From IMG/VR virus record IMGVR_UViG_2663762646_000002: a stretch of DNA of 52,847 nt. One strand, given 5' to 3'. The first letter of the stretch is position 1. The number at the start of each line of letters is the position of its first letter. Source of the stretch: a virus (taxonomy: Duplodnaviria; Heunggongvirae; Uroviricota; Caudoviricetes). A model generated the notes under the pieces. That model was given only the letters and a program-made list of their open reading frames with translations. It searched no databases and had not been told where the DNA came from. Below are positions 1-44,011 of the stretch, one piece after another. The translations under genes and the position numbers were made by a program.

Positions 1-1284
1 TTACAGACTTCTGGAAGGTTGCGCAGCTCTTACAACACGCGGTTGATCTTCCGCAGCGTCTTCCAGCGCACTTAAATCACGGTCTTTCACCTCTGGCATT
101 TTCAGCGCAGAGATTAAACCAATCACTGAATATGCCATGATCATAATGGCGATCGGATACCAGGATTCCGTCATGGTGCAGAAAATACCCGCCAGGATAG
201 GACCAAAACCGGAAGCGATAAGACCACCAATTTCTTTAGAAATAGCCATCCGGGTAAAGCGGTTTTTACAGCCGAACATTTCTGCCATGGTAATGTTTTC
301 CAGAGCAAATAATCCCAGCACCGCACAGTTATGAATCACAATCAGTGCAACCATAATGGTGCTCGGGGCATAGCTTTTATCTACAATGATAGAAAGCATT
401 GGCCATGCCAGCACAATCGCGGAGGTATTCATAATAATATACGGGATCCGGCGACCAATTTTATCGGATAACCAACCAAGGAACGGAATGGTCATAAAGC
501 CGAGAATCGAACTGATCATCAATGCATCTGTTGGAATTGCTTTGTTAAACAATAACGTCTGCACTAAATAGCCTGCAAGGAAAGTCTGAATTAACCCGGA
601 GTTACCCGCCTGACCAAAACGCAGCCCTGTTGCCAGCCAGAAGGATTTGCTCTGGAACATGCTACCAGCAGGTGCAGGTTTTGCTGTCGGTTGGTTACTG
701 TCGTTAACCTTCTCAAAGACCGGGCTTTCTTTCAGATTCATACGCAACCAGATAGCAAAGACCATCACGACAACACTCGCCAGGAACGGTATACGCCATC
801 CCCACGCCAGCAGTTCCTCTTTACTGAGAATGAAGAACATAAAGGCCCAGATTGCCGTTGCGCTCAAGGTTCCGCAGTTAGTTCCCATAGCCACAAATGA
901 GGAGATAATTCCGCGCTTACCTTTTGGCGCATATTCCGCCAGCATCGTACCGGCACCGGAAATTTCCGCACCTGCACCCAACCCCTGAATAATACGCAAC
1001 GTCACCAGCAAGATGGGTGCAAAAACACCAATCTGTGCATAGGTCGGTAACACACCAATTAAGGTGGTACAGATCCCCATCATGGTGATGGTAATAAAGA
1101 GCACTTTTTTACGCCCTATTCTGTCGCCCATTTTGCCGAAAATAAATGCTCCGACAATACGCGCCACATAACCTGCACCGTAGGTTCCCATTGCCAGAAT
1201 TAACGCCATTGCCGTTGATGATTCAGGAAAAAATATTTCATGAAACACTAACGCTGCGCCGAGCGAATATAACTGGAAATCCAT
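1..1284 (-). CDS. ydfJ: MFS-type metabolite transporter (host gene flanking the prophage)
   Basis: Complete 427-aa ORF with hydrophobic multi-helix composition; matches E. coli YdfJ as recalled; TAA stop at 1-3 on the minus strand. Confidence 0.8.
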   Translation of the reverse strand: MDFQLYSLGAALVFHEIFFPESSTAMALILAMGTYGAGYVARIVGAFIFGKMGDRIGRKKVLFITITMMGICTTLIGVLPTYAQIGVFAPILLVTLRIIQGLGAGAEISGAGTMLAEYAPKGKRGIISSFVAMGTNCGTLSATAIWAFMFFILSKEELLAWGWRIPFLASVVVMVFAIWLRMNLKESPVFEKVNDSNQPTAKPAPAGSMFQSKSFWLATGLRFGQAGNSGLIQTFLAGYLVQTLLFNKAIPTDALMISSILGFMTIPFLGWLSDKIGRRIPYIIMNTSAIVLAWPMLSIIVDKSYAPSTIMVALIVIHNCAVLGLFALENITMAEMFGCKNRFTRMAISKEIGGLIASGFGPILAGIFCTMTESWYPIAIMIMAYSVIGLISALKMPEVKDRDLSALEDAAEDQPRVVRAAQPSRSL

Positions 1285-2070
1285 AATTCACAGGTGTTTT
1301 TTCCCATCCTGTGGTTTCCTTGGCGTTTTCTAGGTTTTTTCAGATAGTTGCATTTTTTTAAAAAGCATCCTAAGTTCGATCTCAGTGTCTATCTGGGGCC
1401 TATTTCTGTCCCATATATGCCCCAAAAAAACTCCCCAACAGATAAGTAGTTTTTTCATGGATTTATGCGTAAAATCAAGAACGGCTGGAAATCATTCAAT
1501 ACTCACACTATCGAAAAATTTACCAGCCAATCGCAGCACGTTCTTGCATAAGGCGTGTCTGCGGTTTTTCAACTATTCAGATACATCACTCCCATCACAT
1601 TCATTCCTCCGCATCAAAGGCATATAGGCTATATCACCTTGATATTTTTCTTTTTCAGATAAAAACTGTTATCTATGTATACTTTTAAACCCAATCCGTG
1701 TAGAGTCTCTGCATAAGATAGTTTGCAGTTGCCGCTTCAGCTTGCGCCATAAACCGCCTGATTTTTGCTGCCACCTGTTAGCATTCCTGTATACCTGAAA
1801 CGACAATGTTTATCTACGAACTTTAAGAACACCCAAGATAAAAATTGTCAACTATATCATATATAACACATTACTAATTCGAGGCTATATGAACAGCATA
1901 CTGATAATCACATCTCTCCTTATCATATTCAGCATTTTTAGTCATGCCCTAATAAAATTAGGGATTGGCATATCCAATAACCCAGACAAAACCGATGTAT
2001 AAGTCAACATATCCTGAATCAGACATACAATATCGCAATGAAAATCAATAATATTTTAAGGAATATCTTC

Positions 2071-2304
2071 ATGAAATCAAAAGACACCCTAAAGTGGTTC
2101 CCTGCGCAGCTTCCTGAAGTAAGAATTATCCTAGGGGATGCTGTAGTGGAAGTAGCAAAACAGGGAAGACCTATCAATACCAGAACATTGCTTGATTACA
2201 TTGAAGGAAACATAAAGAAAAAATCATGGCTGGATAACAAAGAATTATTACAAACAGCGATATCAGTTCTTAAAGACAACCAAAATTTAAATGGTAAAAT
2301 GTAA
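2071..2304 (+). CDS. ydfK: cold-shock-induced small protein, YdfK/YnaE family
   Basis: 77 aa from ATG 2071 (MKSKDTLKWFPAQLPEV...), AAGGAA Shine-Dalgarno 7 nt upstream; the tracked 88-aa ORF starts at an upstream in-frame ATG. Confidence 0.75.
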   Translation: MKSKDTLKWFPAQLPEVRIILGDAVVEVAKQGRPINTRTLLDYIEGNIKKKSWLDNKELLQTAISVLKDNQNLNGKM

Positions 2305-2620
2305 TATAATAAACTTACTTTTTTATCATTTTTCCACTTTAACAACATTTTGCTCCACTTTTCCACGACCAAACAACTTGAAATCTGGTTAAAATAACAC
2401 GCAACACTATTCTTCTTCCTTGAGTCCGCCCGGAACTCGAAAAACAAACCGAGTTAAAGCCATTTTTCACAAAATCGATTTTGGGTCTCACCAAAATTAC
2501 GGGGTTGCATACGCATTCGTTTATTTTCGAACGTGTACATACAAATATGCACAAAAATAATCATAATTATTTTCTGAGATGCATTATGATATGAACACCA
2601 ATTTCGTATAGAGTCTCACT

Positions 2621-3211
2621 ATGTCTCAAATTTTTGCTTACTGTCGGATATCAACGCTGGATCAGACCACCGAAAATCAACGCCGGGAAATCGAAAGTGC
2701 AGGTTTTAAAATCAAACCTCAGCAAATAATCGAAGAACACATTAGCGGCTCAGCAGCAACCAGTGAGCGTCCTGGTTTTAACCGGTTGCTTGCTCGCCTG
2801 AAATGTGGTGATCAATTGATTGTGACAAAACTGGATCGCCTTGGTTGTAATGCAATGGATATCAGGAAAACAGTGGAACAACTGACCGAAACAGGTATCA
2901 GAGTGCATTGCTTAGCATTGGGGGGCATTGACCTGACCAGTCCAACAGGAAAAATGATGATGCAAGTAATTTCAGCAGTCGCTGAATTTGAACGAGACCT
3001 TTTACTTGAACGCACTCATTCCGGGATAGTAAGAGCCCGCGGCGCAGGGAAACGTTTTGGTCGACCACCTGTGTTAAATGAAGAACAGAAACAGGCGGTA
3101 TTCGAACGAATTAAGTCAGGTGTAAGTATAAGTGCCATTGCCCGGGAATTCAAAACCTCGCGGCAAACCATTTTAAGAGCCAAAGCAAAACTTCAGACAC
3201 CTGACATATAA
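2621..3211 (+). CDS. pinQ: serine recombinase, Pin/Gin/Hin DNA-invertase family
   Basis: 196 aa; N-terminal resolvase catalytic domain (YCRISTLDQ with Ser nucleophile) and C-terminal HTH; convergent with tfa as in Pin-type prophage loci. Confidence 0.85.
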
Positions 3212-3308
3212 AAAATAATCTCGGTGTGAGATGCTTTACGTCTTCCAAGCCCCCTTCCTTGCCGTAAATGGAAAGATACATCTAATTATAGAATTTATAT
3301 GTTTTACC

Positions 3309-3884
3309 CTACGGCAGTGCTGGCCATTCAATATCCTGTGCAGTTGACGTATCAACACGGTTCAGCAATACCCGATACTTTTTCCATGCTTCCAGCAACG
3401 AGATTTCTTCCTCCGTTGCAATTTCCAGATCTGCAGCATCCTGAAGCGGCGCAATATGCTCACTGGCTACCTGCATCAGGTTGTTTTTTGTTTCTTCCGC
3501 CTCCCGGATCCGGAACAGTTTTTCTGCTTCCGTATCCTTCACCCAGGCTGTGCCGTTCCACTTCTGAAACTCCCCTTCCGGCGATAACCAGGTAACATTT
3601 TCCGGTAACGGACCGAGTTCAGAAATAAATAACGCGTCGCCGGAAGCCACGTCATAAACCGTTTTACCCCGATGATCTTCAACGAGATGCCACGATGACT
3701 CATCACTGTTGAAAACAGCCACGAAGCCAGCCGGAATATCTGGCGGTGCAATATCGGTACTGTTTGCTGGCAGACCTGTATGAGGCGGAATATATGCATC
3801 ACCTTCACCAATAAATTCATTAGTTCCGGCCAGCAGATTATAAATTTTTATGGTCCGTGGTTGTTCACTCATTCTGAATGCCAT
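3309..3884 (-). CDS. tfaQ: tail fibre assembly protein (Tfa)
   Basis: 191 aa, [24 protein letters not shown]... matches Tfa proteins as recalled; start overlaps the stf stop. Confidence 0.85.
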
Positions 3885-6800
3885 TATGCAAGCCTCACAA
3901 TATAGTTAAATGCGATGTTTTTGACGGTGTTTTCCGCGTTACCAGCAGCGTTAACGGTGATGGTGTGTCCATGTGAACCAATCGCAACGGAGTGCGTATG
4001 AGCACCAATACCGACAGTATGTGCATGTGCGCCTGCGCTTGCAGCAGTGCCGGACAGCGAGTGGGTATGAGCACCATCTGATGATGTCTTCCCTGCATTA
4101 CGAGTCTGGCCACTACCGCTTGTTGTGCTCATAATCCCCGCGCTTAGATTTGAAATCGCGGTATAACCATTAGGGAAAATGCTCGTGTTCGTGCCACCAA
4201 ATGCACCGGAACTCTTGTGTTGGTGCGCACCGGCACTATTTGCGATCCCGCTAATACTATGGGTATGCGCCCCGGTGTTATTCGTGGATTTGGTTCCGTA
4301 ATCAAACGACGATGTGGTTTTCGTCCCCAAATCCGTACTGGATGCGCTGGCGCTGTGGGTGTGCGATTTAATGCCGTCCTGTTCCTGAGATAATACGGCC
4401 CGACCACTGGCGGGCTTGCCCTTAATCGTCCAGCCACGCATATCAGGGATCACGCCTGACGGATAAGCAACTGCAAGTTTCGGGTATGCAGATTTGTCAA
4501 AAGTCTGCCCCTGCATCAGGGCATAACCAGACGGAACGGTATCTGATGGCCACGGGATTGGTGCACCGACTGGATAAAACTCTGCAGGAGGATGAGCCGA
4601 GGTGTAAAGCTGCGCCCACGGCGACCAGTTTGCGTCGGTCGTATCCCGTCGTGAACGAATAAATGCCGGAGCATGAGCACCGCTTGTACCACTCCAGCCG
4701 ATGAGTAACTCACCTTCGCCAACGGCTGTCATCCCTTTCAGGTGAATGATATTTCCATACGCTGTTGGATATCCGTTGTTATACACCTCGTATAACTCAA
4801 GACCTGCTGCCCCCTGCGTATTGTCTGTCAGCGCGGTTACCCGACCTTTTGAAGCCAGATTAACTGATGATACTGCTGTTCCACCTGACGGTAACGCCCC
4901 GATCTCTGATGCCGTTGGCTTATTTCTGGAGTTATAGTCCCTTCGCCAGCCAGGTGAATAATCTGTTCCGTGATTAATATAGGTAAACTGGGCGTTAGTT
5001 GTTCCACCACCAGTGGAGGTGGTCGGTGTGGTAATGCGGATCGTCATCGCTGACTTTATCCCCATTACTTCAATGACAGCTCCGGCGAGATGAATATTAC
5101 CGCAGTCAGTATCAGTAATGATTTTATTATTGCCATAAGACCAGGAACCCTTGCACATCCAGTATGGATGGTTAAATGCTCCCTGAGAATCCAGCCACTC
5201 GATAAACTGTGCAGTCGTCCAGTTTCCTGTTGTTGTGCTTACTGACCCACCGAAGGCACGGCAGGCACCAATATTTTTCGTAAAGGTATCTTTGCCAGGG
5301 ATATCCGCACCGTTCTGATCTTTCTGCAGACGTTTCTCAGCATTGTCATTGGCTGCTTTTACTGCCTTTGGTGTCGCGGCAAGCGTTTCAGACGTGCTGT
5401 TGGTCGCGCTGCTTAGCTGGATTATCCCTTTCTGTGCTGTCGTTGCATCCTGTGCGGTGTATTTCCCGTTAGCCAGGTCATACGCGGCCTTAACGGCTTT
5501 TGGTGTTGCCGCCAGTGACTCGGAAGTGCTGTTAGTCGCACTACTGAGCTGTACTATCCCCTTTTTCGTCGTGCTCGCATCCTCAAGCGCCACGGCGGAT
5601 GCAATATCCTCTGCCCGTTTTGCTGCTGTCTCGGCGCGCGTTGCTGCGGATTCTGCCGTACTTTTGCTCTGAGCTGCCGCCGTCGCACTGCCAGCAGCCT
5701 CTGTCGCCTTCGTGGATGCCGTCGTGGCGCTGCTCTTCGCTGCTGACGCTTGTCTGGTCGCCTCATCTTTTGAAGCAGACGCCGATGATGCCGATGACGC
5801 CGCCGAACTGGCTGACGATGCGGCAGCCGTTTTTGAGGATTCTGCGCTGGTTTCCGACGCTTTCGCGTTCGTTTCGGATGTCTTCGCTGCGGAAGCAGAC
5901 CTCGCTGCTGCGCTGGCCTGTTCAGTGGCTTCGCCAGCCTTCGTTGTGGCTGTTGAAGCAGACGATGCGGCGCTTTCTGCCGATTTTCCGGCGGCGGTGG
6001 CACTGGCTGAGGCCTGCCCGGCACTTGTTGACGCTGCACTGGCAGACGACGCAGCCGCTGTTTTTGAGCCTGCCGCAGCCGAGGCGCTCTGTCCCGCTGC
6101 CGTTTCAGAAGACCTGGCGTTCGTCTCTGACGTTTTTGCCGCCTTCGCGGAATTTCCTGCCGCTGTTGCCGAGGAAGCTGCGCTACTGGCGCTCGAGGAT
6201 GCGTTCGTTTCTGATGATTTTGCCGCCTCTTTTGAAGCCGACGCATCCCGGGCTGAGGTGGCAGCTTCTGACGCTTTCGTGGTCGCGGTGGATGCAGAAG
6301 TGGCTGCTGATTGTTGTGACGCTGCAGCATTCGTTTCTGACGTTTTCGCGGCACTGGCACTGGTAGCTGCCGCGCTTTTTGAGGACTCTGCAGCGGCAGC
6401 ACTTTTTGATGCTTCAGTGGCCTTTGTTGATGCCGTTCCTGCGCTGGAAGACGCTGACTGAGCCGACGAAGCGGCCTGTCCGGCTGACGTGCTGGCTGCG
6501 CGTGCTGAGCCTGCAGCATCAGTCGCATGGGTTGCCGCCTCACGGGCAGATGTGCCGGCATCGCCGGCTGACTTCTTCGCGGCTGCCGTGTTCTGTGCCA
6601 CCGCGGACGCGTTACGCGCCACCTCTTCCACCATCAGTTCAAAACGGCGCAGAGCCTCCGGACGGGCATCATCCTCCGTCATGGCACCGAGAAAATCATT
6701 CAGCGTACCGGGTCGGGAATCTTCATACACGGTGATGGTCCCGGCATGTGACGGCGGGAATCCTTCCACCAACAGAATAACGCTGTACTGACCGTACTCA

Positions 6801-6958
6801 ACGTCCATGCTGTAACGCCCGGCTTCATCCGGATTTTCTGAGGCCAGCGTGTTCACCACCACCGCGGTGCTGTTACGTTTTGCTTTCAGCTGGATTGTGC
6901 AGTTCTGTACCGGTTTTCCTGTGCCGTCTTTCAGTACACCTGAAATCTTTACTGCCAT
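3884..6958 (-). CDS. stf: side tail fibre protein Stf, with extended Ala/Ser/Thr-rich shaft
   Basis: N-terminus [26 protein letters not shown]... and C-terminus with GAHTHS repeats ending [22 protein letters not shown] match lambda Stf as recalled; start set at MAVKIS (third codon of the tracked 1026-aa ORF). Confidence 0.85.
5340..6600. repeat. low-complexity Ala/Ser/Thr-rich repeat block inside stf, including a tandem ~40-aa duplication
   Basis: Repetitive GC-rich DNA producing long spurious ORFs in several frames; duplicated motif KGI(V/I)[11 protein letters not shown](S/T)[11 protein letters not shown] in the Stf translation. Confidence 0.7.
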
Positions 6959-6968
6959 ATTCACCCCA

Positions 6969-6996
6969 CAAAAAAGCCCGCCTGAACAGGCGGGCT
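6969..6996 (-). terminator. rho-independent terminator downstream of lom
   Basis: Minus strand AGCCCGCC-TGTTCA-GGCGGGCT hairpin followed by a T run (plus-strand aaaaaagcccgcctgaacaggcgggct). Confidence 0.6.
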
Positions 6997-7022
6997 GTCA
7001 TAACACTGTGTTACCTGGCTAA

Positions 7023-7622
7023 TCAGAACTTATAACCGACACCCACGATGAAACCGTCAGTGCGCCAGTCGCCACTGCCGGAGCCTTCATAAGCAATATC
7101 AATGGCCACGGATTCGGTCGGGTTAAACTGCACGCCAGCTCCCCACGCCAGAGACGTGTTGCTGTGGCGACCGTCATCACTTCCGGTCAGCACGTCGTGC
7201 GTTTTCCCCTTGTTGTCAGTTACGCGGAGATAATCCCCGGAGAAAGTCGACACACGGCTGTAAGCCATACCCGCCATCGCATACGCGCTGAACCATTCAT
7301 TCACGCGCACAGACGGCCCCACCATCACGCTGAACCAGCGGTTACGCACGGAATCTTCATGCCAGCGGGTATCGCTGTAACGGGTAAGCTGGCGATTCTT
7401 GTCTCCTGCATAGCTGAATGACGTCACCAGCCCCAGTGTGTCCGTAAACTCATAACGGTATTTCACGTTAATCCCGTTAAGATCATCGCTGCCGGGAACG
7501 TTCGTCGAGGCATGAAGATACCCCGCGCTCAGCGTGGACTGATGTTCAGATGCCCATGCAGGCGCACCGGATACGGCCAGACAAATGGCTGCGGACAAAA
7601 TGGCGGCATAAAGTTTACGCAT
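7023..7622 (-). CDS. lom: Lom/Ail-family outer-membrane beta-barrel protein
   Basis: 199 aa with signal peptide; C-terminus ...[25 protein letters not shown] matches lambda Lom as recalled; sits between J and stf. Confidence 0.85.
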
Positions 7623-7691
7623 AATTACCTCTCGCTTTTCTGCAATAAAAAAGGCACCATTTCTGGTGCCCTTATATGGGTTATAACAATT

Positions 7692-10600
7692 TCAACGAAT
7701 ACTGATGCCGGAAGCGGCTTTTTTGGTCACAATCACCGTACAGTCGGTGATATTGCCTGCCCCCTGATTGCCTTTCTGGAAAATCTTAAACTCCAGAGTG
7801 ACGCTACCACCACCACTAGGCATATCAATAACTGCACTGTAACTACCGGGAATGGCCCCTTTAGTTTCTCTGGATGCGATTAATACGCCGTTTTTGCGAA
7901 CTTCAAAACCATAACCCGTGTATCGCGTGCCTCCTGGGTTATTTCCGCTCCCCGGATCGTCATACGCTATACCGTTAAAAATAATGGGCGGAATAATAAT
8001 CTGGCGGTCAAAGTTATGATCATCGCTGATGGTGACTGTAACCGTACCGTTTGGTGTTTCCGTGTTACCCCACGTACCGACTTTTTTCGGGAAGGCTTTT
8101 GATACAGCTTTAACGAAATCCCCTCTGACCTGGGTCGCCTCCAGCATGCCCTTAATCGTACAGTTCTGGTTAATCGTGACATTGTTGAGCGTTCCTGAGT
8201 TCGCATTCACACTACCACTGATATCCGCATTTTTAGCGGTCAGCTTTCCGTCTGATGTCAGGGAAAATACCGGAGGACTGCCACCGCTGGTAATGGTGGG
8301 GGCCGTCAGGCGTTTCAGGAACACTTCATTCATGAATATCTGATCGCCCTGACCAACAAACATCGGCTTTGTGTTGCCATTCGCAGGATTAATCATCGCA
8401 ATCCTGTCTGCTGCCAGCAGCACCTGACTCTGCATGCCGTCAGGGGTGTTCTCAATACCGGCACCGATACCCGCAATATAAAGGCGTCCGTCCTGCATCT
8501 GCTGCAGCTTCACTGCCCACATGCTGTTCAGGTTATTATTTGTATCAACCTGAACCTTCTGTATCTGCTGGATTGCCGCACTCTGGTCTTCCAGTTTCTT
8601 ATTGACGGTCTGTGTTATTTCATTGCTGACATCCGTTATGGACGTCCTGATTTCAGTCAGGTCAGGCGCAAGCTGACCGTTATCAATCTGCGTCCACAGC
8701 TCCTGAGCCAGATGGGTTTTCCCTATCTCGCCTTTGAAAAAATCCAGATAGCCTGATGCATCATCACTCGGCTGACCGACAGCCTCCACGAATGCCGATT
8801 TGCCAACGGTGTTCACACTGCGAACGTAAAAATAATAATCATGGCCCGGTTTGATATTGATACTGGCGGCTATCCAGTACAGTGCCGTACCAAGATAACG
8901 CGCGCTGGTTTCAACCTGCCTGATATCCGCAATCCGTTTTTCCGAGAACCAGAACTCAAACTGTACCGTCGGGTCATAAACCGCAAGATGCGGCGTGGCG
9001 GTTATCTGAAAATAGCCCGGCGTCAGCTCAATCCGCGACGGCGCTGCCGGTGCGGCAATCCGGAACGATACCGACGCCGGATCGCCCTGCTGCCCCCACG
9101 CATTTACTGCCCGGACTGTCAGCCTGTAGTTCCCCAGAGCCAGTTGTGTGAAGCGGTAAGTGGTTTCCGTCGTCCGGGCCGTGCTGACCAGCCGCTCACG
9201 GCCGTCATCCGCTGCCACGGTCAGGCGAAGCAGGAAGCTCACGCCCTTCACCACCTTCGGCGTGTCCCAGCGCGCCAGCACCTGATATTCCCCGCTGTCT
9301 GCGGTGACTTCGGCAGTCAGGTGCTGCACTGCTGGCGGCGTGACACCATTCACCGTGCCGCTCTGGTCACCGTCAAAGTGCGCCCCGTTATCCACGATGG
9401 CTTCTTTCTCCGGTACATGCTGCACGGCGATGATGGCATACGTGCCGTCATCGTTCTCACGGATACTCACGCAGCGGAACAGGCGCTGGCGCAGCGTCGG
9501 CAGCTTCAGCCCCCACACGCTGTATTCTGCAACGCCGTCAGGAACACGGCTCACTTTCACCTTCACGCCGTCGGTGACGGACTGGACCTCCACGCTGACC
9601 GGATTACCCTGACCGTCAACCAGGCTTATCAGCGTGGTACCGGAGGATGGCAGCGTGATTTCACGGTCGAGCGTCAGCGTCCGGGTCTGGCTGTTCACCG
9701 CCAGCACGCGCCCGCCGGTGCTGATACCCGCATAGTCATCATCGCAGATTTCAATGACATCCCCCGGTACATGGCGAAGCCCTTCCGCACCCACGCTGAA
9801 GTCCACGGTCTGCGTTTCCAGCAGTTCCGTTTTAATCAGCCACAGCCCGGCGCGGTGTGCCTGCCCCCGGCTGGTACAGCCAAAGGCATCCATCTTCGTG
9901 ACGTTACGACCGTAACGGGCAATGGCCTGCGTATCTTCAACAAGCTCTGTCGCCGTCTCCCAGCCGTTATCCGGGTCAATCCAGTTCACCTCAACGGCAT
10001 TATGGCGGTCTTTCAGGGCGCTGAAACTGTAGCGGAACGGCGCGCCATCATCCGGCATCACCACATTACTGCGGTTATAGGTCCACACCTTATCCGACGG
10101 TCGGTCCTGCACGAACGTCAGCGTCTGCCCGTTCCATACCGGCATACAGCGCATCGCCGAGCAGAAATCACTGAGCACATCCCACGCCTTGCGCTGTGTG
10201 GTCAGGTATGCATTACAGGTGATGCGCGGCTCCGTGCCGCCAAAGCCGTCCGGTACTGACTGGTCGCAGTACTGGCCGATGACATACAGCGCCCATTTGT
10301 CCACATCCGCCGCACCAAGACGTTTCCCCATGCCGTAGCGTGGATGGGTCAGCATATCCCACAGACACCAGGCCATGTTGTTGCTGTATGCCGGTTTAAA
10401 CGTTCCGTCCCAGATACCGCTGTATTGCCGCGTCTGCGGGTTATAGTTCGACGGCACCTGCAGAATACGCCCGCGCAGATGATAATTACGGCTCACCTGC
10501 TGGCTGCCGAACTGCTCCGAATCCACCTGTACGCCGACCAGTGCCGTGTTCGGGTAGCTCTGTTTCACATCGATGATTTCGGTGTATGACGACCAGAGCG

Positions 10601-11189
10601 TTTTGTTCTGCAGCTGGTCTGTGGTGCTGTCCGGCGTCATTCTGCGCATCCGGATATTGAACGGGCGCGGTGGCAGGTTATCCACCACCACCGATGCTAG
10701 ATACTGTGAGGTGGTTTTGCCTTTAATGGTGATGTCTTTTTCCGTCACCCAGCCACCGTTACGTTGTATCTGAACCAGCAGGCGGACTTCCGACGGATTC
10801 CGGTCCCCCTTTGAGGTGGTTTCCACCAGTGCCTGCACACCGAAGGTAAAGCGCAGACGGTCGATGTTTGCAGACGTAATGGTGCGGGTGATCGGCGTGT
10901 CATATTTCACTTCCGTACCCAGCACAGTCTCGGAGCCGGAGGATTCAAAACCTTCCGGCGGTGTCTGCTCCTGCTCACCTGCCCGGAACACCACCGTGAC
11001 GCCGGAGATGTTGGTATTCCCCTCACTGTCCAGCACCGGCGTACTGTTCAGCAGCACGCTTTTTAATCCATCTACCGGACCTTCAACCGGCCCTTCGCTG
11101 ATGGCATCGATCACACTCAGCAACTGCGTGGACTTCAGGTTGTCCTTCGCTTCGCGCGGGGTATGCCCCTTACTGCTTCCTTTACCCAT
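7692..11189 (-). CDS. J: tail tip / host-specificity protein J
   Basis: 1165 aa; first ~790 residues near-identical to lambda J as recalled ([26 protein letters not shown]...); C-terminal receptor-binding part divergent. Confidence 0.95.
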
Positions 11190-30157: not shown

Positions 30158-31024
30158 CTAAGCGAGGTTCTTGTTTTCAAATTGTTCCGGACTGAGGCCG
30201 CCACACCAACTGTGCCGCCGCCACCGATTGTAATCACATTCGATATAATTAAACACCGTTGCCCGCATTATTTCCCGGCTGATAAAGTGTTCTCCATGGA
30301 TACATTCCACTTTCAGCGAATGAAAGAAGCTTTCCACGCAGGCATTATCGTAGCAGCAACCTTTTGCGCTCATACTTCCACGCAGATTATGCCGCTTCAG
30401 TTGCGCCTGATAATCTGCTGAACAGTACTGGCCTCCACGGTCCGTGTGAACGATAACGTTCCGGGGCCTCTTACGCCGCCACAGCGCCATCTGCAGGGCA
30501 TCGCAGGCCAGTTGCGCCGTCATGCGTGGCGACATTGACCAGCCAATAACGGCACGTGACCACAGGTCAATGACCACTGCCAGATACAGCCAGCCTTCAT
30601 CTGTACGTAAGTACGTGATGTCTCCTGCCCACTTCTGGTTCGGGCCACTGGCGTAAAAATCCTGCTCCAACAGATTTTCTGACACAGGCAGGCCGTGTGC
30701 GCGGTAGCTGACCGGGCTGAACTTCCGGGAGGCCTTTGCCCTCAGTCCCTGACGGCGCAGGCTTGCCGCCACGGTTTTTACGTTAAAGGGGTAACCCTGA
30801 GCACGCAGTTCATCCGTCAGGCGTGGGGCACCGTAACGCTGTTTTGACCGGGTAAAAGCCGCGAGGACAACGCTGTCGCAGTGTTGGCGGAACTGCTGAC
30901 GCGTGCTTATCCTTGTCCGCCGCTGACACCACGTATACCAGCCGCTGCGGGCCACCCGGAGCACGCGGCACATTGCTTTGATGCTGAACTCAGCCTGATG
31001 TTTTTCAATAAAGACATACTTCAT
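30158..31024 (-). CDS. insF: IS3 transposase OrfB (InsF), DDE/rve domain
   Basis: 288 aa, matches IS3 InsF as recalled. Confidence 0.9.
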
Positions 31025-31320
31025 TTCAGGCGCTTCGCGAAGTATGTCGCGGCCTTTTGGAGGATAGCCAGCTCTTCATCCCGTTCTGCCAGCTGGCGTT
31101 TGAGACGTGCAATCTCGGTAGACATCTCCAGTTCACGTTCAGAAGACGTCTGCTGATTTTGCTGTTTACTGCGCCAGTTGTAGAGTTGTGATTCATACAG
31201 GCTGAGTTCACGGGCTGCGGCAGTAACACCGATGCGTTCAGCAAGCTTCAGGGCTTCACTGCGAAATTCAGGCGAATGCTGTTTACGGGGTTTTTTACTG
31301 GTTGATACTGTTTTTGTCAT
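31021..31320 (-). CDS. insE: IS3 transposase OrfA (InsE), HTH
   Basis: 99 aa from [31 protein letters not shown]...; overlaps orfB as expected for IS3-family frameshifting. Confidence 0.9.
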
Positions 31321-38568: not shown

Positions 38569-39882
38569 TCAATCTTTTTTATCGGGATCAGGCTTCTTTT
38601 TAGGTAACTTCGGGGGCTTAACTTGCTGATGACTTTGCGTTCGGCGCGTAAGCCAGGGATGGTCAGCTTTAGGTTTAACATAGTATTTTGAGCGTAAATC
38701 AATACGGGCATTATCCACTCGTTCATGGACACTCTTTTCATCATCCAGTGGTATAGGCTCCGGGCCATCAACATACTTTTCCCAGCCCAGCGCTTTCCCG
38801 TCATACAGAACGTTAATTTCACCGTCAAAGTTCTCGCATACAGTAACAACCGAATGCCTAAGTCGATATCCCCGGCCCTCACTGCGTACCTGAAACGCAC
38901 TGCTTTTGTACTGGAAAGTGAGATTTTTAGACAGAACGCGCTTCGCCTGTAGGCTGAAGATATAACCCAGTTCCTCTTCAGAATGGTGCACATCAAGATG
39001 AGCATTATCAGTAGTACGAGGCGACGTAGCGAACCGGTTGTTATAGGCTTCAATAAAGGTCGGCAACCATGCATTTGCTGTTTCAATATCACTGATATTC
39101 TGAAGCCGCATTTCTTTGACCAGCCTGTCCTGTAGTGTCTGATTGGCGCGCTCTACCCGCCCTTTTGCCTGCGGGCTGTTGGCATGGATTGGCTCGATGC
39201 CCAGTGTCTTTATCGCACGAGTGAACTGGGTCAGCTCACCTTCCCGCTCTGGGTTATTTACCCTGAATATACTGTGTCTATCAGAGTAGAGAGCGAGCGG
39301 TACGCCATGATCATTAAGGTAACCCCGGAGGGTTTCCATGTAAGCCCGGGTTGTTTCAGCAGGCACAAAACGCAACGCCATCAACGCACTGGTGGCATCA
39401 TCAATGAAAACGATCAGTGTACATCTGGGGCCTCGATTTTCAAACCAGTCATGAGGTGAGCCATCAATCTGGATCAGTTCACCGTAAGATGGTCGTCGCA
39501 TGCGGCGTTGATATATACGGGCAATTTTACGACGGCGTTCACGCCATAACCCCTCTTCTATCATCCACTTTCTGAGAGTTTCAACGGATAAAGATAAACC
39601 GTGTATCTCGCGCAATTTTTCGCACGCAAACGTAGGTCCAAAATCAGCGTAACGGCCTTTGAGGAGTGAAATTACTGTTGCTCTGAATTCAGTAGAAAAG
39701 GAATTATTAGGACGCTTTCCACGTCGGTGGGAAACCAGACCAGAAGGCCCTTCATTTCTATACCGTTGCACCAGACGTTTAACCTGCCGAATAGAAATGC
39801 CAATGCGTGCCGCAGCTTGTTCCTGAATAATCTGAAGTCGGTGGAGTTCCTTATGACTCATCGTAACAGTCTCTTTGATCAT
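38569..39882 (-). CDS. rve-superfamily DDE transposase/integrase-like protein with N-terminal HTH (IS481/ISNCY-like); possible intact counterpart of the K-12 intK remnant
   Basis: 437 aa; HTH at the N-terminus, DDE-type catalytic core (LIQIDGSPHDWF, ALYSDRHSIF, AKGRVERANQTLQDR); no clear terminal inverted repeats found nearby. Confidence 0.7.
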   Translation of the reverse strand: MIKETVTMSHKELHRLQIIQEQAAARIGISIRQVKRLVQRYRNEGPSGLVSHRRGKRPNNSFSTEFRATVISLLKGRYADFGPTFACEKLREIHGLSLSVETLRKWMIEEGLWRERRRKIARIYQRRMRRPSYGELIQIDGSPHDWFENRGPRCTLIVFIDDATSALMALRFVPAETTRAYMETLRGYLNDHGVPLALYSDRHSIFRVNNPEREGELTQFTRAIKTLGIEPIHANSPQAKGRVERANQTLQDRLVKEMRLQNISDIETANAWLPTFIEAYNNRFATSPRTTDNAHLDVHHSEEELGYIFSLQAKRVLSKNLTFQYKSSAFQVRSEGRGYRLRHSVVTVCENFDGEINVLYDGKALGWEKYVDGPEPIPLDDEKSVHERVDNARIDLRSKYYVKPKADHPWLTRRTQSHQQVKPPKLPKKKPDPDKKD

Positions 39883-40216
39883 GAAAAATCCCCCAGAGAA
39901 TTGTCTGGGGACATTTTAGAATGGTTCAAAGGGGACATTACAGCTTGGTGTTAACAATAGCCTGCTTCTCCGTGCCTTTCGGCACGTAAGAGGCTAACCT
40001 ACATGTGTCTAGCATGAAATTGGCCTCAGATTAATGTTAAGCGTCTTGCAGGACGCGTAATGTTAACTGGGGCTTTTCTCTATCTGCCGTTGGTGTCCAT
40101 GCCCGAGGCAGATAGCCTCAAGCACCCGCAGTCATTCTACTTAACTAAGATTTCCCCGCAAACCGTTTTTGTCCAGCACAGTAAATATCCAACTAAACCA
40201 ATGGAGTTCGCTGTAT

Positions 40217-40396
40217 TTACCGCCAGTATTCAATGCACATGACCGCCATGAACACCCCTAAAAAAAGGGCATTTATATATCCAAATATTAATATCAAAAC
40301 ATCAACTTTTTCCATATACCTTGCTGTGAAGATGATGGGCATACATGATGCGAACAACCAGAACGCAACAAACAAAAACTGCAATGCGTTTTTCAT
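40217..40396 (-). CDS. small two-TM membrane protein, function unknown
   Basis: 59 aa from ATG 40396 preceded by AGGAGG at 5-nt spacing (MKNALQFLFVAFWLFASCMPIIFTARYMEKVDVLILIFGYINALFLGVFMAVMCIEYWR). Confidence 0.5.
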   Translation of the reverse strand: MKNALQFLFVAFWLFASCMPIIFTARYMEKVDVLILIFGYINALFLGVFMAVMCIEYWR

Positions 40397-41159
40397 TATT
40401 CCTCCTACAATCAATGTGCAATTACATTTAAACACACCTCAATTTGGCCGGACATATAAATATCTAAACCAGAAAAAATCACTTACATAGCGTTACAAAC
40501 TCTTTAGTCTAAAGGTTCATCGTAAAACATTCCCCATACTTATCAGTCCGTTCCGCGCCAGGTAGCTCATTGCCTTATCTGGCAACCTGTAATCAGGTTT
40601 CCGCTTTTTCAGTTGGCTGGTCGTTTAACCGACATAGTTAATCCATTAATCTAGTTGCCGGATGTTGGTGGATTTTCGCGTTTTAGTTGTTCATAAAAGT
40701 GCACAGCTTTAACCAGTTCTTCTGATGTAACTGGGACTGGTGAGGCAGTGAATAAGGCCTGAATTTGATAGTTCGGCCTGTCGTTACAATCCTCTTTTTT
40801 CGGTACATATTTCCAGTCACCAGACCACTACTTCCCCTGAAAGTCCGTAACGCCTTTTTTCACGTAGCGATATCGCCATGCCACTGGTTTTGCTTGCCCC
40901 GCCGTTTCATGCCCTTCCTGATAATTAATCTCGCTCATTCATCGCCCCACTCATCACAATATGCTTCGACCGGAGTTTTTCCCGCTTCATAGTCATCACG
41001 CTAGGATTCGACATCAGCAGCACTTCCACCGCGTAACTCACCATAGTCCATTAATAGTTCATCCCGCTCTTCAAAACTGTAAGCGTCGTCTCAGCACCGT
41101 CTGGCAGATCCTGAAATTCCTGAGAGAATAGTGGACACCAAATATGGTGGACGCAATCC

Positions 41160-41564
41160 ATGAAATCATTAACCGCAGTGCGTAAAAAAAGCCCTAATTA
41201 TCCCGTTGAGTTCAAAATCAAAATGGTTGAACTCTCGCATCGACCAGAGATCTCCGTAGCGCAACTCGCTCGTGAGCATGGGATCAACGATAATTTGCTG
41301 TTCAAGTGGCGCCAGTACTGGCGCGAAGGAAAACTACGTCCTCCTTCAACAACAGAAAACAACGTGCCTGAGCTGCTCCCGATAACACTTGATGCCGAAG
41401 ATGTTGTCCCTACAACCTCCCCCCGGTCACAACCTGTAGCTGCTGCGACACCTGAATCACTCAATATCAGCTGTGAAGTGACGTTCCGGCACGGATCACT
41501 CCGTCTGAATGGTGCCATCAGCGAAAATATCCTGAACCTGCTGATACGGGAGCTCAAACGTTGA
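41160..41564 (+). CDS. IS66-family accessory protein TnpA
   Basis: 134 aa, first ORF of the IS66 unit. Confidence 0.85.
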   Translation: MKSLTAVRKKSPNYPVEFKIKMVELSHRPEISVAQLAREHGINDNLLFKWRQYWREGKLRPPSTTENNVPELLPITLDAEDVVPTTSPRSQPVAAATPESLNISCEVTFRHGSLRLNGAISENILNLLIRELKR

Positions 41565-41908
41565 TCCCATTACCATCAGGGACAAAGATCTGGCTGGTCG
41601 CTGGCATCACCGATATGAGAAACGGCTTCAACGGCCTGGCGGCAAAGGTGCAGACGACGCTGAAAGACGATCCGATGTCAGGTCACGTTTTTATCTTCCG
41701 TGGGCGTAATGGCAGTCAGGTAAAGCTCCTCTGGTCTACCGGCGATGGACTGTGTCTGCTGACCAAACGGCTGGAGCGCGGCCGCTTCGCCTGGCCGTCA
41801 GCCCGGGATGGCAAAGTGTTCCTCACACCGGCACAGCTGGCGATGCTGCTGGAAGGTATCGACTGGCGGCAGCCTAAAAGACTGCTTACGTCCCTGACTA
41901 TGTTGTAA
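41561..41908 (+). CDS. IS66-family accessory protein TnpB
   Basis: 115 aa; start is a TTG overlapping the tnpA stop. Confidence 0.85.
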   Translation: MIPLPSGTKIWLVAGITDMRNGFNGLAAKVQTTLKDDPMSGHVFIFRGRNGSQVKLLWSTGDGLCLLTKRLERGRFAWPSARDGKVFLTPAQLAMLLEGIDWRQPKRLLTSLTML

Positions 41909-41956
41909 GCCTCTTTATCCTGGTCGACGCTGAATGAGCCTGGTAATATACCCGGT

Positions 41957-43492
41957 ATGAGCAGCTCACTTCCTGACGATATCAATGCACTGAAACGTCT
42001 CCTTGCCGAACAGGAGGCGCTGAACCGTGCCCTGCAGGAAAAGCTGAACGAGCGTGAACGCGAAATAGACCATCTGCAGGCACAGCTGGATAAGCTGCGC
42101 CGGATGAACTTCGGCAGCCGCTCGGAAAAAGTCTCCCGTCGTATCGCACAGATGGAAGCTGACCTGAAGGCACTTCAGAAAGAAAGTGATACCCTTACCG
42201 GTCGGGTTGACGACCCGGCCGTGCAGCGCCCGCTGCGTCAAACCCGCACCCGCAAACCGTTCCCCGAATCACTCCCCCGCGATGAAAAACGGCTGCTGCC
42301 GGCAGCGTCATGCTGCCCGGAATGTGGAGGCTCGCTGAGCTATCTGGGTGAGGATGCCGCCGAACAGCTGGAGCTGATGCGCAGCGCCTTCCGGGTTATC
42401 CGGACTGTACGTGAAAAGCATGCCTGTACTCAGTGCGATGCCATCGTGCAGGCCCCCGCGCCTTCACGGCCCATCGAGCGGGGTATCGCAGGACCGGGGC
42501 TGCTGGCCCGCGTGCTGATCTCAAAGTATGCAGAGCACACCCCGCTGTACCGCCAGTCTGAAATGTACGGCCGCCAGGGCGTGGAGCTGAGTCGTTCACT
42601 GCTGTCGGGCTGGGTGGATGCATGCTGCCGGCTACTGTCACCGCTGGAAGAAGCGCTTCAGGACTATGTGCTGACTGACGGTAAGCTCCATGCTGATGAC
42701 ACGCCTGTCCCGGTGCTGTTGCCAGGCAATAAGAAAACGAAGACCGGGCGGTTATGGACCTACGTTCGTGACGACCGTAACGCCGGGTCAACGCTGGCGC
42801 CGGCGGTGTGGTTCGCTTACAGCCCGGACAGAAAAGGCATCCATCCGCAGACCCATCTTGCGGGGTTCAGTGGTGTACTGCAGGCGGATGCATACGCCGG
42901 GTTCAACGAGCTGTACCGGGATGGCCGGATAACGGAAGCCGCCTGTTGGGCTCACGCCCGCCGTAAAATCCACGATGTGCACGTTCGCACCCCGTCAGCC
43001 CTGACGGAGGAAGCGCTGAAACGGATCGGCGAACTGTACGCCATCGAGGCAGAGATAAGGGGAATGACGGCGGAGCAGCGCCTTGCCGAACGTCAGTTGA
43101 AAACGAAACCGCTGCTGAAATCCCTGGAAAGCTGGCTGCGTGAAAAGATGAAAACCCTGTCGCGACACTCAGAACTGGCGAAAGCGTTCGCATACGCCCT
43201 GAACCAGTGGCCGGCGCTGACGTACTATGCAGATGATGGCTGGGCTGAGGCGGACAATAACATCGCTGAAAATGCGTTGCGGATGGTCAGTCTGGGCCGC
43301 AAAAACTACCTGTTCTTCGGTTCGGATCATGGAGGAGAGCGGGGAGCGCTGCTGTACAGCCTGATCGGGACGTGCAAACTGAACGGAGTGGAGCCAGAAA
43401 GCTACCTCCGCTATGTCCTTGACGTCATAGCCGACTGGCCGATAAACCGGGTCGGCGAACTGCTCCCCCTGGCGCGTAGCACTGCCGACTGA
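41957..43492 (+). CDS. IS66-family transposase TnpC
   Basis: 511 aa with leucine-zipper-like N-terminus, CxxC zinc motif (CCPECGG...CTQCD) and DDE region. Confidence 0.9.
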
Positions 43493-44011
43493 ATAACACA
43501 TCCCCGTCAATACGGTTCTTGCTGCACGCTTACTCAAAACTGATGTTATATTTAGCTGAACAAAAATCAGCCACTTTGTTCTTCCTCATCGTCTTTTATT
43601 TCGTGGTATGAGTAATTGCAGTAGTTAAAGAAAATTTCTTATGCTCCGTCATGAATTTCCTCAGGTGTTGCGTCATCGTCCACTTCGAATACATCCTCAA
43701 AATCTCCACCAGCTATTCCCGTTTCAATAATAATTTTGAACTTTCGCATTTCACTACCGCCCTTTCGGGCGGCCTCCTGATGTTCTGAGGGTGCAGAAAT
43801 CCATCCGGTTAAGGATTAAATTTTATTTACAGAACTGAATTTAATTATTCAGATATACGTATCTGTAGCCTTACGAATCTACTCACTGGATGCCTCTTTC
43901 ATAAAAATAATCCAGTGGGTTTTATCGTTTTTTCCCTGTTCGTTGACAGATAACAGGTTTTCTGTCTGTCAGTGCCAGAATCTGGCTTACCGGTATTTGC
44001 GTTTCATTCCA

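What the first reader, a model, noticed from the sequence alone, without database searches (positions are those of the whole stretch)
7692..8820. J tail-tip protein: lambda-identical N-terminal part but divergent C-terminal receptor-binding region
The first ~790 residues are almost identical to lambda J as I recall it. The last ~370 residues keep the same outline (...[19 protein letters not shown]...) but diverge strongly near the C-terminus (...[49 protein letters not shown]... versus lambda ...DWPSGTRTVTVTDDHPFDRQIVVLPLTFRGSKRTV...). Lambda uses this region to bind LamB, so this phage probably uses a different receptor or a different LamB surface. A longer Stf with an extra repeat accompanies it.
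Basis: partly seen in the sequence, partly recalled or inferred. Interest (0 to 1): 0.45.

Follow-up and report, generated by a model that had tools for sequence, protein, structure and literature searches.

The report
Lambda-like tail tip with phage-434 receptor domain
This is an ordinary, already catalogued tail-tip (J) gene of an E. coli prophage, built from a lambda-like body, a phage-21-type shaft and a phage-434-type receptor-binding tip, so it most likely docks on the porin OmpC rather than lambda's LamB.

Summary
Window 7692..11189 (minus strand) encodes an intact 1165-aa J protein. Residues 1-805 are 98% identical to lambda J; the rest diverges.

The divergence is a clean mosaic of known alleles, not a new sequence:
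- Residues 806-959 (helical shaft and upper fibre) are 97% identical to phage 21 J.
- Residues 960-1165 (lower fibre and receptor-binding domain) are 98% identical to phage 434 J, with four substitutions. They are 53% identical to lambda J overall and 38% within the receptor-binding domain itself.

Phage 434's J allele (h434) is the textbook determinant for using OmpC instead of LamB.

The allele is not new:
- The whole window is 100% identical to a prophage at the ydfJ (Qin) site in many sequenced E. coli genomes. RefSeq lists the protein as WP_046464172.1.
- The same full-length architecture occurs at 95-97.5% nucleotide identity in isolated phages (phiSTEC1575-Stx2k, ev243, cdtI, Ayreon, phi458).
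- The 434-type tip is present in about 39% of 5,426 complete E. coli genomes.

The prophage carries insertion-sequence (IS) insertions and is probably defective. The Stf remark is also correct.

Verdict: already known, low interest.

The parts
7692..11189 (-). Complete J gene (tip attachment protein / central tail fibre), 1165 aa plus stop. Identical to RefSeq WP_046464172.1.
   Evidence: ORF list and translation. Pfam domains Phage-tail_3, FNIII-A_GpJ, Ig_J, Ig_J_second, Phage_Tail_Tip and Ig_GpJ_C all score above their cut-offs. RefSeq annotation of the identical locus.
8774..11189 (-). Module 1, residues 1-805: hub domains plus two FNIII/Ig domains, the backbone shared by lambda, 434 and 21.
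   Evidence: 97.9%, 98.3% and 98.0% aa identity to lambda, 434 and 21. 95.5-95.7% nt identity to each, with sites matching 21 and 434 finely interleaved. This corresponds to the part of gpJ (residues 1-807) resolved inside the tail-tip complex (PMC12617516).
8313..8773 (-). Module 2, residues 806-959: phage-21-type alpha-helical shaft and upper central straight fibre, 27 residues longer than in lambda and 434.
   Evidence: 97.4% aa and 95.2% nt identity to phage 21 J, against 55% aa and 65% nt to lambda and 434 with 28 gap columns. Domain names follow PMC11101478.
7692..8312 (-). Module 3, residues 960-1165 plus stop: phage-434-type lower central fibre and receptor-binding domain.
   Evidence: 98.1% aa and 98.7% nt identity to phage 434 J. 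The four substitutions, written window-to-434, are N1047D, I1136V, Q1138H and G1143R. Informative sites switch from 21-type to 434-type at J nt 2877/2878.
7698..8105 (-). Receptor-binding Ig-like domain proper (Pfam Ig_GpJ_C, residues 1029-1164).
   Evidence: Pfam PF12421, E = 6.5e-25. AlphaFold2 model shows a beta-sandwich with mean pLDDT about 80-94 per 10-residue block here. Best fold matches are the lambda gpJ RBD (8xcj, 8xck) and A8 gpJ (9wca, 9wcb; 9wcb is the OmpC complex).
7650..7673 (-). Terminator-like hairpin just downstream of J.
   Evidence: Consensus scan. A terminator is annotated at the equivalent place after J in phage 434.
7023..7622 (-). lom-like Ail/Lom outer-membrane protein gene, 199 aa.
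   Evidence: Pfam Ail_Lom, E = 1.4e-119. RefSeq annotation.
3884..6964 (-). Side tail fibre gene stf: 1026 aa from a GTG start, with the RefSeq ATG start at 6958 giving 1024 aa. Longer than lambda Stf.
   Evidence: Pfam phage_tail_N, two Phage_fiber_2 repeats and Collar. N-terminal 350 aa are 80% identical to lambda orf-401 and the C-terminal 230 aa are 70% identical to orf-314. Two ATPKAV repeat units at residues 486 and 530 against one in lambda, plus an extra stretch at about 550-795 that aligned to neither lambda Stf ORF.
3309..3884 (-). Tail fibre assembly gene (tfaQ-like), 191 aa.
   Evidence: Pfam Caudo_TAP, E = 3.6e-43. RefSeq annotation as tfaQ.

Best explanation
The gene encodes the trimeric central tail fibre (J) of a lambda-like siphovirus prophage. 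It is a three-module mosaic. Residues 1-805 (hub and FNIII domains) are the conserved part that assembles with the other tail-tip proteins. Residues 806-959 are the phage-21 version of the helical shaft and upper fibre. Residues 960-1165 are the phage-434 (h434) version of the lower fibre and the Ig-like receptor-binding domain. A virion carrying this J would bind irreversibly to the trimeric porin OmpC rather than to LamB. By analogy with lambda J-LamB, binding would trigger fibre rearrangement and tail opening. The modules were most likely assembled by homologous recombination in the conserved stretches that flank them, one ending near residue 805 and one around residues 940-1000. Shown here: the mosaic structure, the identities and the prevalence. 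Inferred: OmpC binding, by homology to 434, and the signalling mechanism, by analogy with lambda.
For: Structure of the mosaic:
- Segment identities and breakpoints come from protein and DNA alignments with lambda, 434 and 21.
- The RBD segment is 98.7% nt identical to 434, while the backbone is only 95.7% identical. This fits cassette exchange.
- The C-terminal 161 aa are 96.9% identical to the h434 allele of lambda h434 imm21. That allele is the classical host-range marker (PMC9119081).

Receptor:
- 434 J confers OmpC use on lambda (PMC3509688, PMC11101478).
- 434 J is described as targeting OmpC in PMC12502783.

Family membership and fold:
- All J Pfam domains are present.
- The predicted RBD fold matches solved lambda gpJ RBD structures at E = 7e-17.

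The architecture works in real phages:
- The same full-length architecture is found in plaque-forming phages at 95-97.5% nt identity in a single aligned piece. These include phiSTEC1575-Stx2k, ev243, PhiR42_1, Kati, cdtI, Ayreon and phi458.
- The gene order is canonical, running tape measure, M, L, K, I, J, lom, stf, tfa.
Against: - No adsorption or knockout data exist for this exact allele. I found no receptor assignment for any phage carrying the 21-shaft plus 434-RBD combination.
- Four substitutions relative to 434 lie in the RBD, two of them in predicted loops (N1047D, G1143R). Single J substitutions are known to change porin use in phage 21 (PMC11336670).
- No solved structure of a 434-type RBD exists.
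- The prophage carries an IS3 in its lysozyme gene and IS66 and ISNCY elements in the early region, so this copy may never be used in a virion.
Confidence: 0.85

Rival explanations
1. The tip still uses LamB but contacts a different surface, as phage 21 does with its own divergent RBD.
For: Phage 21 J uses LamB although its RBD differs strongly from lambda's (PMC11336670). The shaft module here is of the 21 type.
Against: The RBD is 98% identical to 434 but only 42-47% to phage 21 and 38-42% to lambda. The h434 allele is defined by OmpC use, not LamB use (PMC3509688, PMC11101478). In lambda, receptor specificity maps to the C-terminal part of gpJ (PMC3509688, PMC11101478).
Confidence: 0.04
2. 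The four substitutions relative to 434 (N1047D, I1136V, Q1138H, G1143R), possibly together with the longer 21-type shaft, shift specificity. The shift would be to a subset of OmpC alleles or extend it to another porin such as OmpF.
For: Positions 1047, 1136, 1138 and 1143, along with 1127, are polymorphic among 434-type alleles. Other natural OmpC-binding gpJ tips (A8, 1A2) discriminate between OmpC variants of MG1655 and EDL933 (PMC11338833). One to a few J mutations let phage 21 add OmpC and OmpF (PMC11336670).
Against: 98% identity normally preserves the receptor class. Several phages with the same allele family were isolated on K-12 hosts, as 434 infects K-12. Nothing found here points to a non-OmpC receptor.
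Confidence: 0.1
3. In this genome the gene is an unused relic of a defective prophage. Its relevance is only as a reservoir that superinfecting lambdoid phages can pick up by recombination.
For: An IS3 interrupts the lysozyme gene, and an IS66 element, an ISNCY transposase fragment and several pseudogenes lie in the early region. The locus is the ydfJ (Qin) site; from general knowledge of K-12, not checked here, that strain holds a heavily deleted cryptic relative at this site. The gene order shared with K-12 Qin genes is visible.
Against: J and the whole head-tail module are intact ORFs with no frameshifts. Integrase and excisionase genes are present. This reading does not contradict the receptor assignment; it only concerns whether the gene is used.
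Confidence: 0.5

Closest known systems
Phage 434 J (central tail fibre, h434 host-range allele; OL657226.1, UMO75286.1)
   Same: Residues 1-805 are 98.3% identical. Residues 960-1165, including the whole receptor-binding domain, are 98.1% identical (98.7% nt). A lom-like gene and a terminator follow in both. The expected receptor is OmpC.
   Different: In the shaft and upper fibre (residues 806-959), 434 has the lambda-type sequence: 55.6% identity and 27 residues shorter. There are four RBD substitutions. The 434 Stf is unrelated in length (1314 nt against 3081 nt).
Phage 21 J (OL657228.1, UMO75436.1), which uses LamB
   Same: The backbone is 98.0% identical, and the shaft and upper-fibre module (806-959) is 97.4% identical with the same 27-residue extra segment.
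   Different: The RBD is only 42-47% identical, with indels. Phage 21 uses LamB (PMC11336670).
Lambda J (NP_040600.1), with solved structures 8IYK, 8XCK and 8XCJ (LamB complex)
   Same: Same domain architecture and predicted RBD fold. Residues 1-805 are 97.9% identical. The HepS trigger residue F924 of lambda is conserved, as F952 here (PMC13043305).
   Different: The shaft is 55% identical and 27 residues shorter in lambda. The RBD is 38-42% identical, with an 8-residue longer loop here ([14 protein letters not shown]) and other indels. Lambda binds LamB.
J of isolated phages phiSTEC1575-Stx2k, ev243, PhiR42_1, Kati, cdtI, Ayreon and phi458
   Same: Same three-module architecture over the full length, at 95-97.5% nt identity in one aligned piece. 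The Stx2k phage J is 98.9% aa identical over the last 375 residues.
   Different: Only point differences. No published receptor assignment was found for them in the searchable library.
Engineered lambda gpJ chimera A8 (PDB 9WCA; 9WCB in complex with OmpC of EDL933)
   Same: A natural prophage gpJ C-terminus that targets OmpC. It has the same fold and is the closest solved structure by sequence, at 54% identity over the modelled region (PMC11338833).
   Different: It belongs to a different RBD sequence class, closer to the 21 type, so it is not the same allele.

Membership tests
Lambda-like tip attachment protein J (central tail fibre) | Full set of J domains: hub (Phage-tail_3), FNIII-A, two Ig/FNIII domains, tail tip fibre and C-terminal Ig-like RBD | tested here: met
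   All six Pfam families score above their curated cut-offs, in the canonical order.
Lambda-like tip attachment protein J (central tail fibre) | Position in the tail gene cluster: tape measure, M, L, K, I, J, then lom, stf, tfa | tested here: met
   ORF order in the window and RefSeq annotation of the identical locus.
Lambda-like tip attachment protein J (central tail fibre) | Forms a trimer at the tail tip and triggers DNA ejection on receptor binding | not testable with these tools
   Only a monomer model could be made. Inferred from 98% identity of the hub part to lambda J.
h434-type receptor-binding module (OmpC-specific J tip) | Sequence of the C-terminal ~200 residues matches phage 434 J / the h434 allele | tested here: met
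   202 of 206 residues identical to 434 J, 98.7% nt. 96.9% identity to lambda h434 imm21 over the last 161 aa. The next sequence class is at or below 57% identity.
h434-type receptor-binding module (OmpC-specific J tip) | Infection or adsorption depends on OmpC and not on LamB | not testable with these tools
   Literature establishes this for 434 J (PMC3509688, PMC11101478, PMC12502783). No data exist for this allele.
Lambda-type LamB-binding RBD | RBD sequence close to lambda J residues ~990-1132 | tested here: not met
   38-42% identity with several indels.
Phage-21-type J | 21-type shaft and 21-type RBD together | tested here: not met
   The shaft module matches at 97.4% but the RBD does not, at 42-47%. 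The match is therefore partial.

The most novel reading that the evidence does not exclude
The specific combination of a long 21-type helical shaft with a 434-type tip, plus the four tip substitutions (two in predicted loops), gives a receptor range different from 434. Examples would be preference for particular OmpC alleles of clinical lineages, or dual porin use. That would make this widespread prophage allele a distinct host-range type.
Probability: 0.1. Interest if true: 0.3.

Novelty: already known. Interest (0 to 1): 0.1.

Why it matters
It matters little beyond correct annotation. Module swapping in the distal part of J is a textbook feature of lambdoid phages, and this allele is already in RefSeq and in several sequenced phages.

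The practical value is modest. The tip can be annotated as 434-type and predicted to bind OmpC. The breakpoints are mapped to about residue 805 and residue 959/960. These may be useful as junctions for engineering chimeric J proteins for phage-based delivery, as was done with other natural tips in PMC11338833. The 434-type tip is very common, occurring in about 39% of complete E. coli genomes, and it still lacks a solved structure.

Tried and rejected
- I looked for experimental receptor assignments for phages carrying the same full-length allele: phiSTEC1575-Stx2k, the mEp phages, the PhiR series, ev243, Ayreon and phi458. Nothing usable was in the searchable library.
- I checked whether the OmpC-targeting chimera 1A2 of PMC11338833 is this tip. 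Its sequence is not in the held supplements. A8 is a different class, at 54% identity.
- I looked for a solved structure of a 434-type RBD. None exists; the best hits are A8 and lambda.
- I looked for inverted repeats that would mark a Pin-invertible tail-fibre segment next to pinQ. Only one weak 20-nt pair was found, 80% complementary, with one arm inside pinQ and the other inside ydfK. No alternative fibre cassette was seen.
- Tandem-repeat search in J found nothing. The only array is a weak 21-nt repeat inside stf.
- The long antisense ORF inside J (8841..10259, plus strand, 472 aa) was not pursued. It lies opposite a well-supported, GC-rich coding region and has no independent support.

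Full report
**What is there**

The finding lies at the 3' end of a 3,498-nt ORF on the minus strand, 7692..11189. The ORF translates into an uninterrupted 1165-aa protein. Pfam finds the complete domain series of a lambda-type tip attachment protein J. In order, these are Phage-tail_3, FNIII-A_GpJ, Ig_J, Ig_J_second, Phage_Tail_Tip (residues 872-1000) and the C-terminal receptor-binding domain Ig_GpJ_C (residues 1029-1164). All score above their curated cut-offs. The neighbours are the canonical ones:
- Upstream in the direction of transcription are the I, K, L, M and tape-measure genes.
- Downstream are a terminator-like hairpin (7673-7650), a lom-like gene (7023..7622), a side tail fibre gene (3884..6964), a tail fibre assembly gene (3309..3884) and a Pin-type recombinase gene.

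**Check of the observation**

The lambda sequence it recalled is accurate. Against lambda J the protein is 82% identical overall. A MAFFT alignment with the J proteins of lambda, 434, 21 and phiSTEC1575-Stx2k, scored by segment, gives these identities to lambda:
- residues 1-805: 97.9%
- residues 806-959: 54.8%, with 28 gap columns (this protein has 27 extra residues in the helical shaft)
- residues 960-1000: 92.7%
- residues 1001-1165: 42.2%
- within the Pfam RBD: 38.1%

There are two distinct divergent blocks separated by a conserved stretch, and the near-identical part extends to about residue 805.

**What the divergent part is**

It is not a novel sequence. It is a mosaic of two classical alleles. 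Residues 806-959 are 97.4% identical to phage 21 J (150 of 154, no gaps). Residues 960-1165 are 98.1% identical to phage 434 J (202 of 206, no gaps).

The DNA shows the same pattern:
- J nt 1-2416 are about 95.6% identical to each of lambda, 434 and 21, with sites matching 21 and 434 finely interleaved.
- From about nt 2417 to 2877 nearly every informative site is 21-type (95.2% identity to 21, 65% to lambda and 434).
- From nt 2878 to the stop nearly every informative site is 434-type (98.7% identity to 434, 63% to lambda and 21).

In window coordinates the junctions are at about 8773/8774 and 8312/8313. The tip cassette is clearly closer to 434 than the backbone is (98.7% against 95.7%). This fits exchange of the cassette by recombination in the conserved flanks.

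The first junction coincides with the end of the part of gpJ (residues 1-807) that is resolved as part of the tail-tip complex (PMC12617516). In the domain nomenclature of PMC11101478, module 2 is the alpha-helical shaft plus upper central straight fibre. Module 3 is the lower central straight fibre plus the receptor-binding domain.

**Receptor inference**

The last 161 residues are 96.9% identical (E = 3e-94) to J of lambda h434 imm21, and 37% identical to lambda J. The h434 allele in that hybrid is the classical host-range marker (PMC9119081). Replacing lambda J with the 434 gene makes lambda bind OmpC, the receptor 434 uses (PMC3509688; restated in PMC11101478). PMC12502783 likewise treats 434 J as OmpC-targeting.

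In lambda, the C-terminal part of gpJ determines host specificity (PMC3509688, PMC11101478). The LamB-using tips of lambda and 21 are only 38-47% identical here. The best-supported function is therefore irreversible binding to OmpC. This step is inferred, not shown.

Only four residues differ from 434: N1047D, I1136V, Q1138H and G1143R, written window-to-434. All four sites are polymorphic within the 434-type allele family, and two lie in predicted loops. J tips can change porin preference through very few substitutions (PMC11336670). Other natural OmpC-binding tips discriminate between OmpC alleles (PMC11338833). A shift in fine specificity therefore cannot be excluded.

**Structure**

No 434-type tip has been solved. 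The closest chains by sequence are the A8 gpJ chimera (9WCA, 9WCB) and lambda gpJ (8XCJ, 8XCK, 8IYK).

An AlphaFold2 monomer model of residues 960-1165, built on a 33-sequence alignment, has mean pLDDT 74. The RBD part scores about 80-94 and is all beta. The upstream fibre strands, which are intertwined in the trimer, are poorly modelled.

Foldseek against the PDB gives these top hits:
- lambda gpJ bound to LamB (8xcj, E = 7e-17, 48% identity)
- A8 gpJ (9wca, 54% identity)
- A8 gpJ bound to OmpC of EDL933 (9wcb)

The fold is thus the expected Ig-like J tip. The difference from lambda lies in the loops, including the 8-residue longer [14 protein letters not shown] loop.

**How common it is**

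The first 25 kb of the window are 100% identical to many complete E. coli chromosomes. In strain GZ04-0086 the window corresponds exactly to 722900-775746. It runs from a truncated ydfJ to the integrase gene next to rspB, so it is a prophage at the ydfJ site. It carries genes annotated with the names of K-12 Qin prophage genes (pinQ, tfaQ, nohA, cspI, cspB, cspF, relBE, hokD, dicABC). It also carries a complete head-tail module. That this is the K-12 Qin site is from general knowledge and was not checked here. RefSeq lists the J protein as WP_046464172.1.

Prevalence among the 5,426 complete E. coli genomes:
- The 1,129-nt region of the finding is found at 80% coverage or more in 1,167 genomes, and at 99% identity or more in 95 records.
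- The tip alone (499 nt) is found in 2,092 genomes, and in 528 records at 99% identity or more.

In the phage collection the same full-length architecture aligns as a single piece at 95-97.5% nt identity in phiSTEC1575-Stx2k, PhiR42_1, ev243, Kati, PhiR34_1, mEp332, ev099, cdtI, Ayreon and phi458. Phage 434 and its relatives align in two pieces because of the different shaft. In the protein database the 434-type tip forms a tight cluster in E. coli, Shigella sonnei and E. albertii. Full-coverage members are 89-100% identical, and the next class is at 57% or below.

**State of the prophage**

An IS3 interrupts the lysozyme gene. An IS66-family element, an ISNCY transposase fragment and several pseudogenes sit in the early region. 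Integrase, excisionase and all morphogenetic genes appear intact. The prophage is therefore probably defective for lysis or replication. This J copy may mainly be a reservoir for recombination with incoming lambdoid phages; that is an inference.

**The Stf remark**

Stf is 1026 aa from a GTG start, or 1024 aa from the ATG used by RefSeq at window 6958. Its first 350 residues are 80% identical to lambda orf-401, and its last 230 residues are 70% identical to lambda orf-314. It has two copies of the Phage_fiber_2 repeat, with ATPKAV motifs at residues 486 and 530, where lambda has one. It also has a stretch at about residues 550-795 that aligned to neither lambda Stf ORF.

**Verdict**

The receptor can be named as OmpC with about 85% confidence. 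The feature is a well-known kind of lambdoid mosaicism and the allele itself is already catalogued and very common. Novelty: already known. Interest: low.

Noticed in passing
window 1-52847: The window is exactly one prophage at the ydfJ site, from a truncated ydfJ to int next to rspB. It carries genes annotated with K-12 Qin gene names (pinQ, tfaQ, nohA, cspI/B/F, relBE, hokD, dicABC) and also a complete lambda-like head and tail module. It is 100% identical to E. coli GZ04-0086 and many other genomes. That the K-12 Qin prophage lacks the head-tail module is from general knowledge and was not checked here.
   Followed up: partly
window about 30158-31320 (IS3) and about 38839-43500 (ISNCY fragment, IS66): An IS3 element splits the phage lysozyme gene. 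An ISNCY transposase fragment and an IS66-family element (ISEc22, frameshifted) lie in the early region, so the prophage is probably defective. Coordinates were derived from the RefSeq annotation of the identical locus by subtracting 2900 from L005 coordinates.
   Followed up: no
window 8334-8336 (J residue F952): The phenylalanine that triggers the prophage-encoded HepS anticodon nuclease (lambda J F924, PMC13043305) is conserved here. 24 of the 32 residues of the trigger peptide are identical to lambda, so this J would probably activate HepS.
   Followed up: no
window 3884-6964 (stf), residues about 550-795: The side tail fibre has a second Phage_fiber_2 repeat and a stretch at about residues 550-795 that aligned to neither lambda Stf ORF. 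Its C-terminal 230 residues stay 70% identical to lambda's OmpC-binding Stf tip. If both J and Stf target OmpC, they would compete for the same receptor, an issue raised for engineered particles in PMC11338833.
   Followed up: partly
window 2621-3211 (pinQ) and 1200-7100: A Pin-type invertase gene sits next to tfa and stf. No alternative fibre cassette or convincing inverted crossover sites were found; there is only one 20-nt pair, 80% complementary. The invertase looks orphaned.
   Followed up: partly
window 8841-10259, plus strand: A 472-aa ORF runs antisense inside J. It is probably an artefact of the GC-rich coding strand opposite and was not examined.
   Followed up: no
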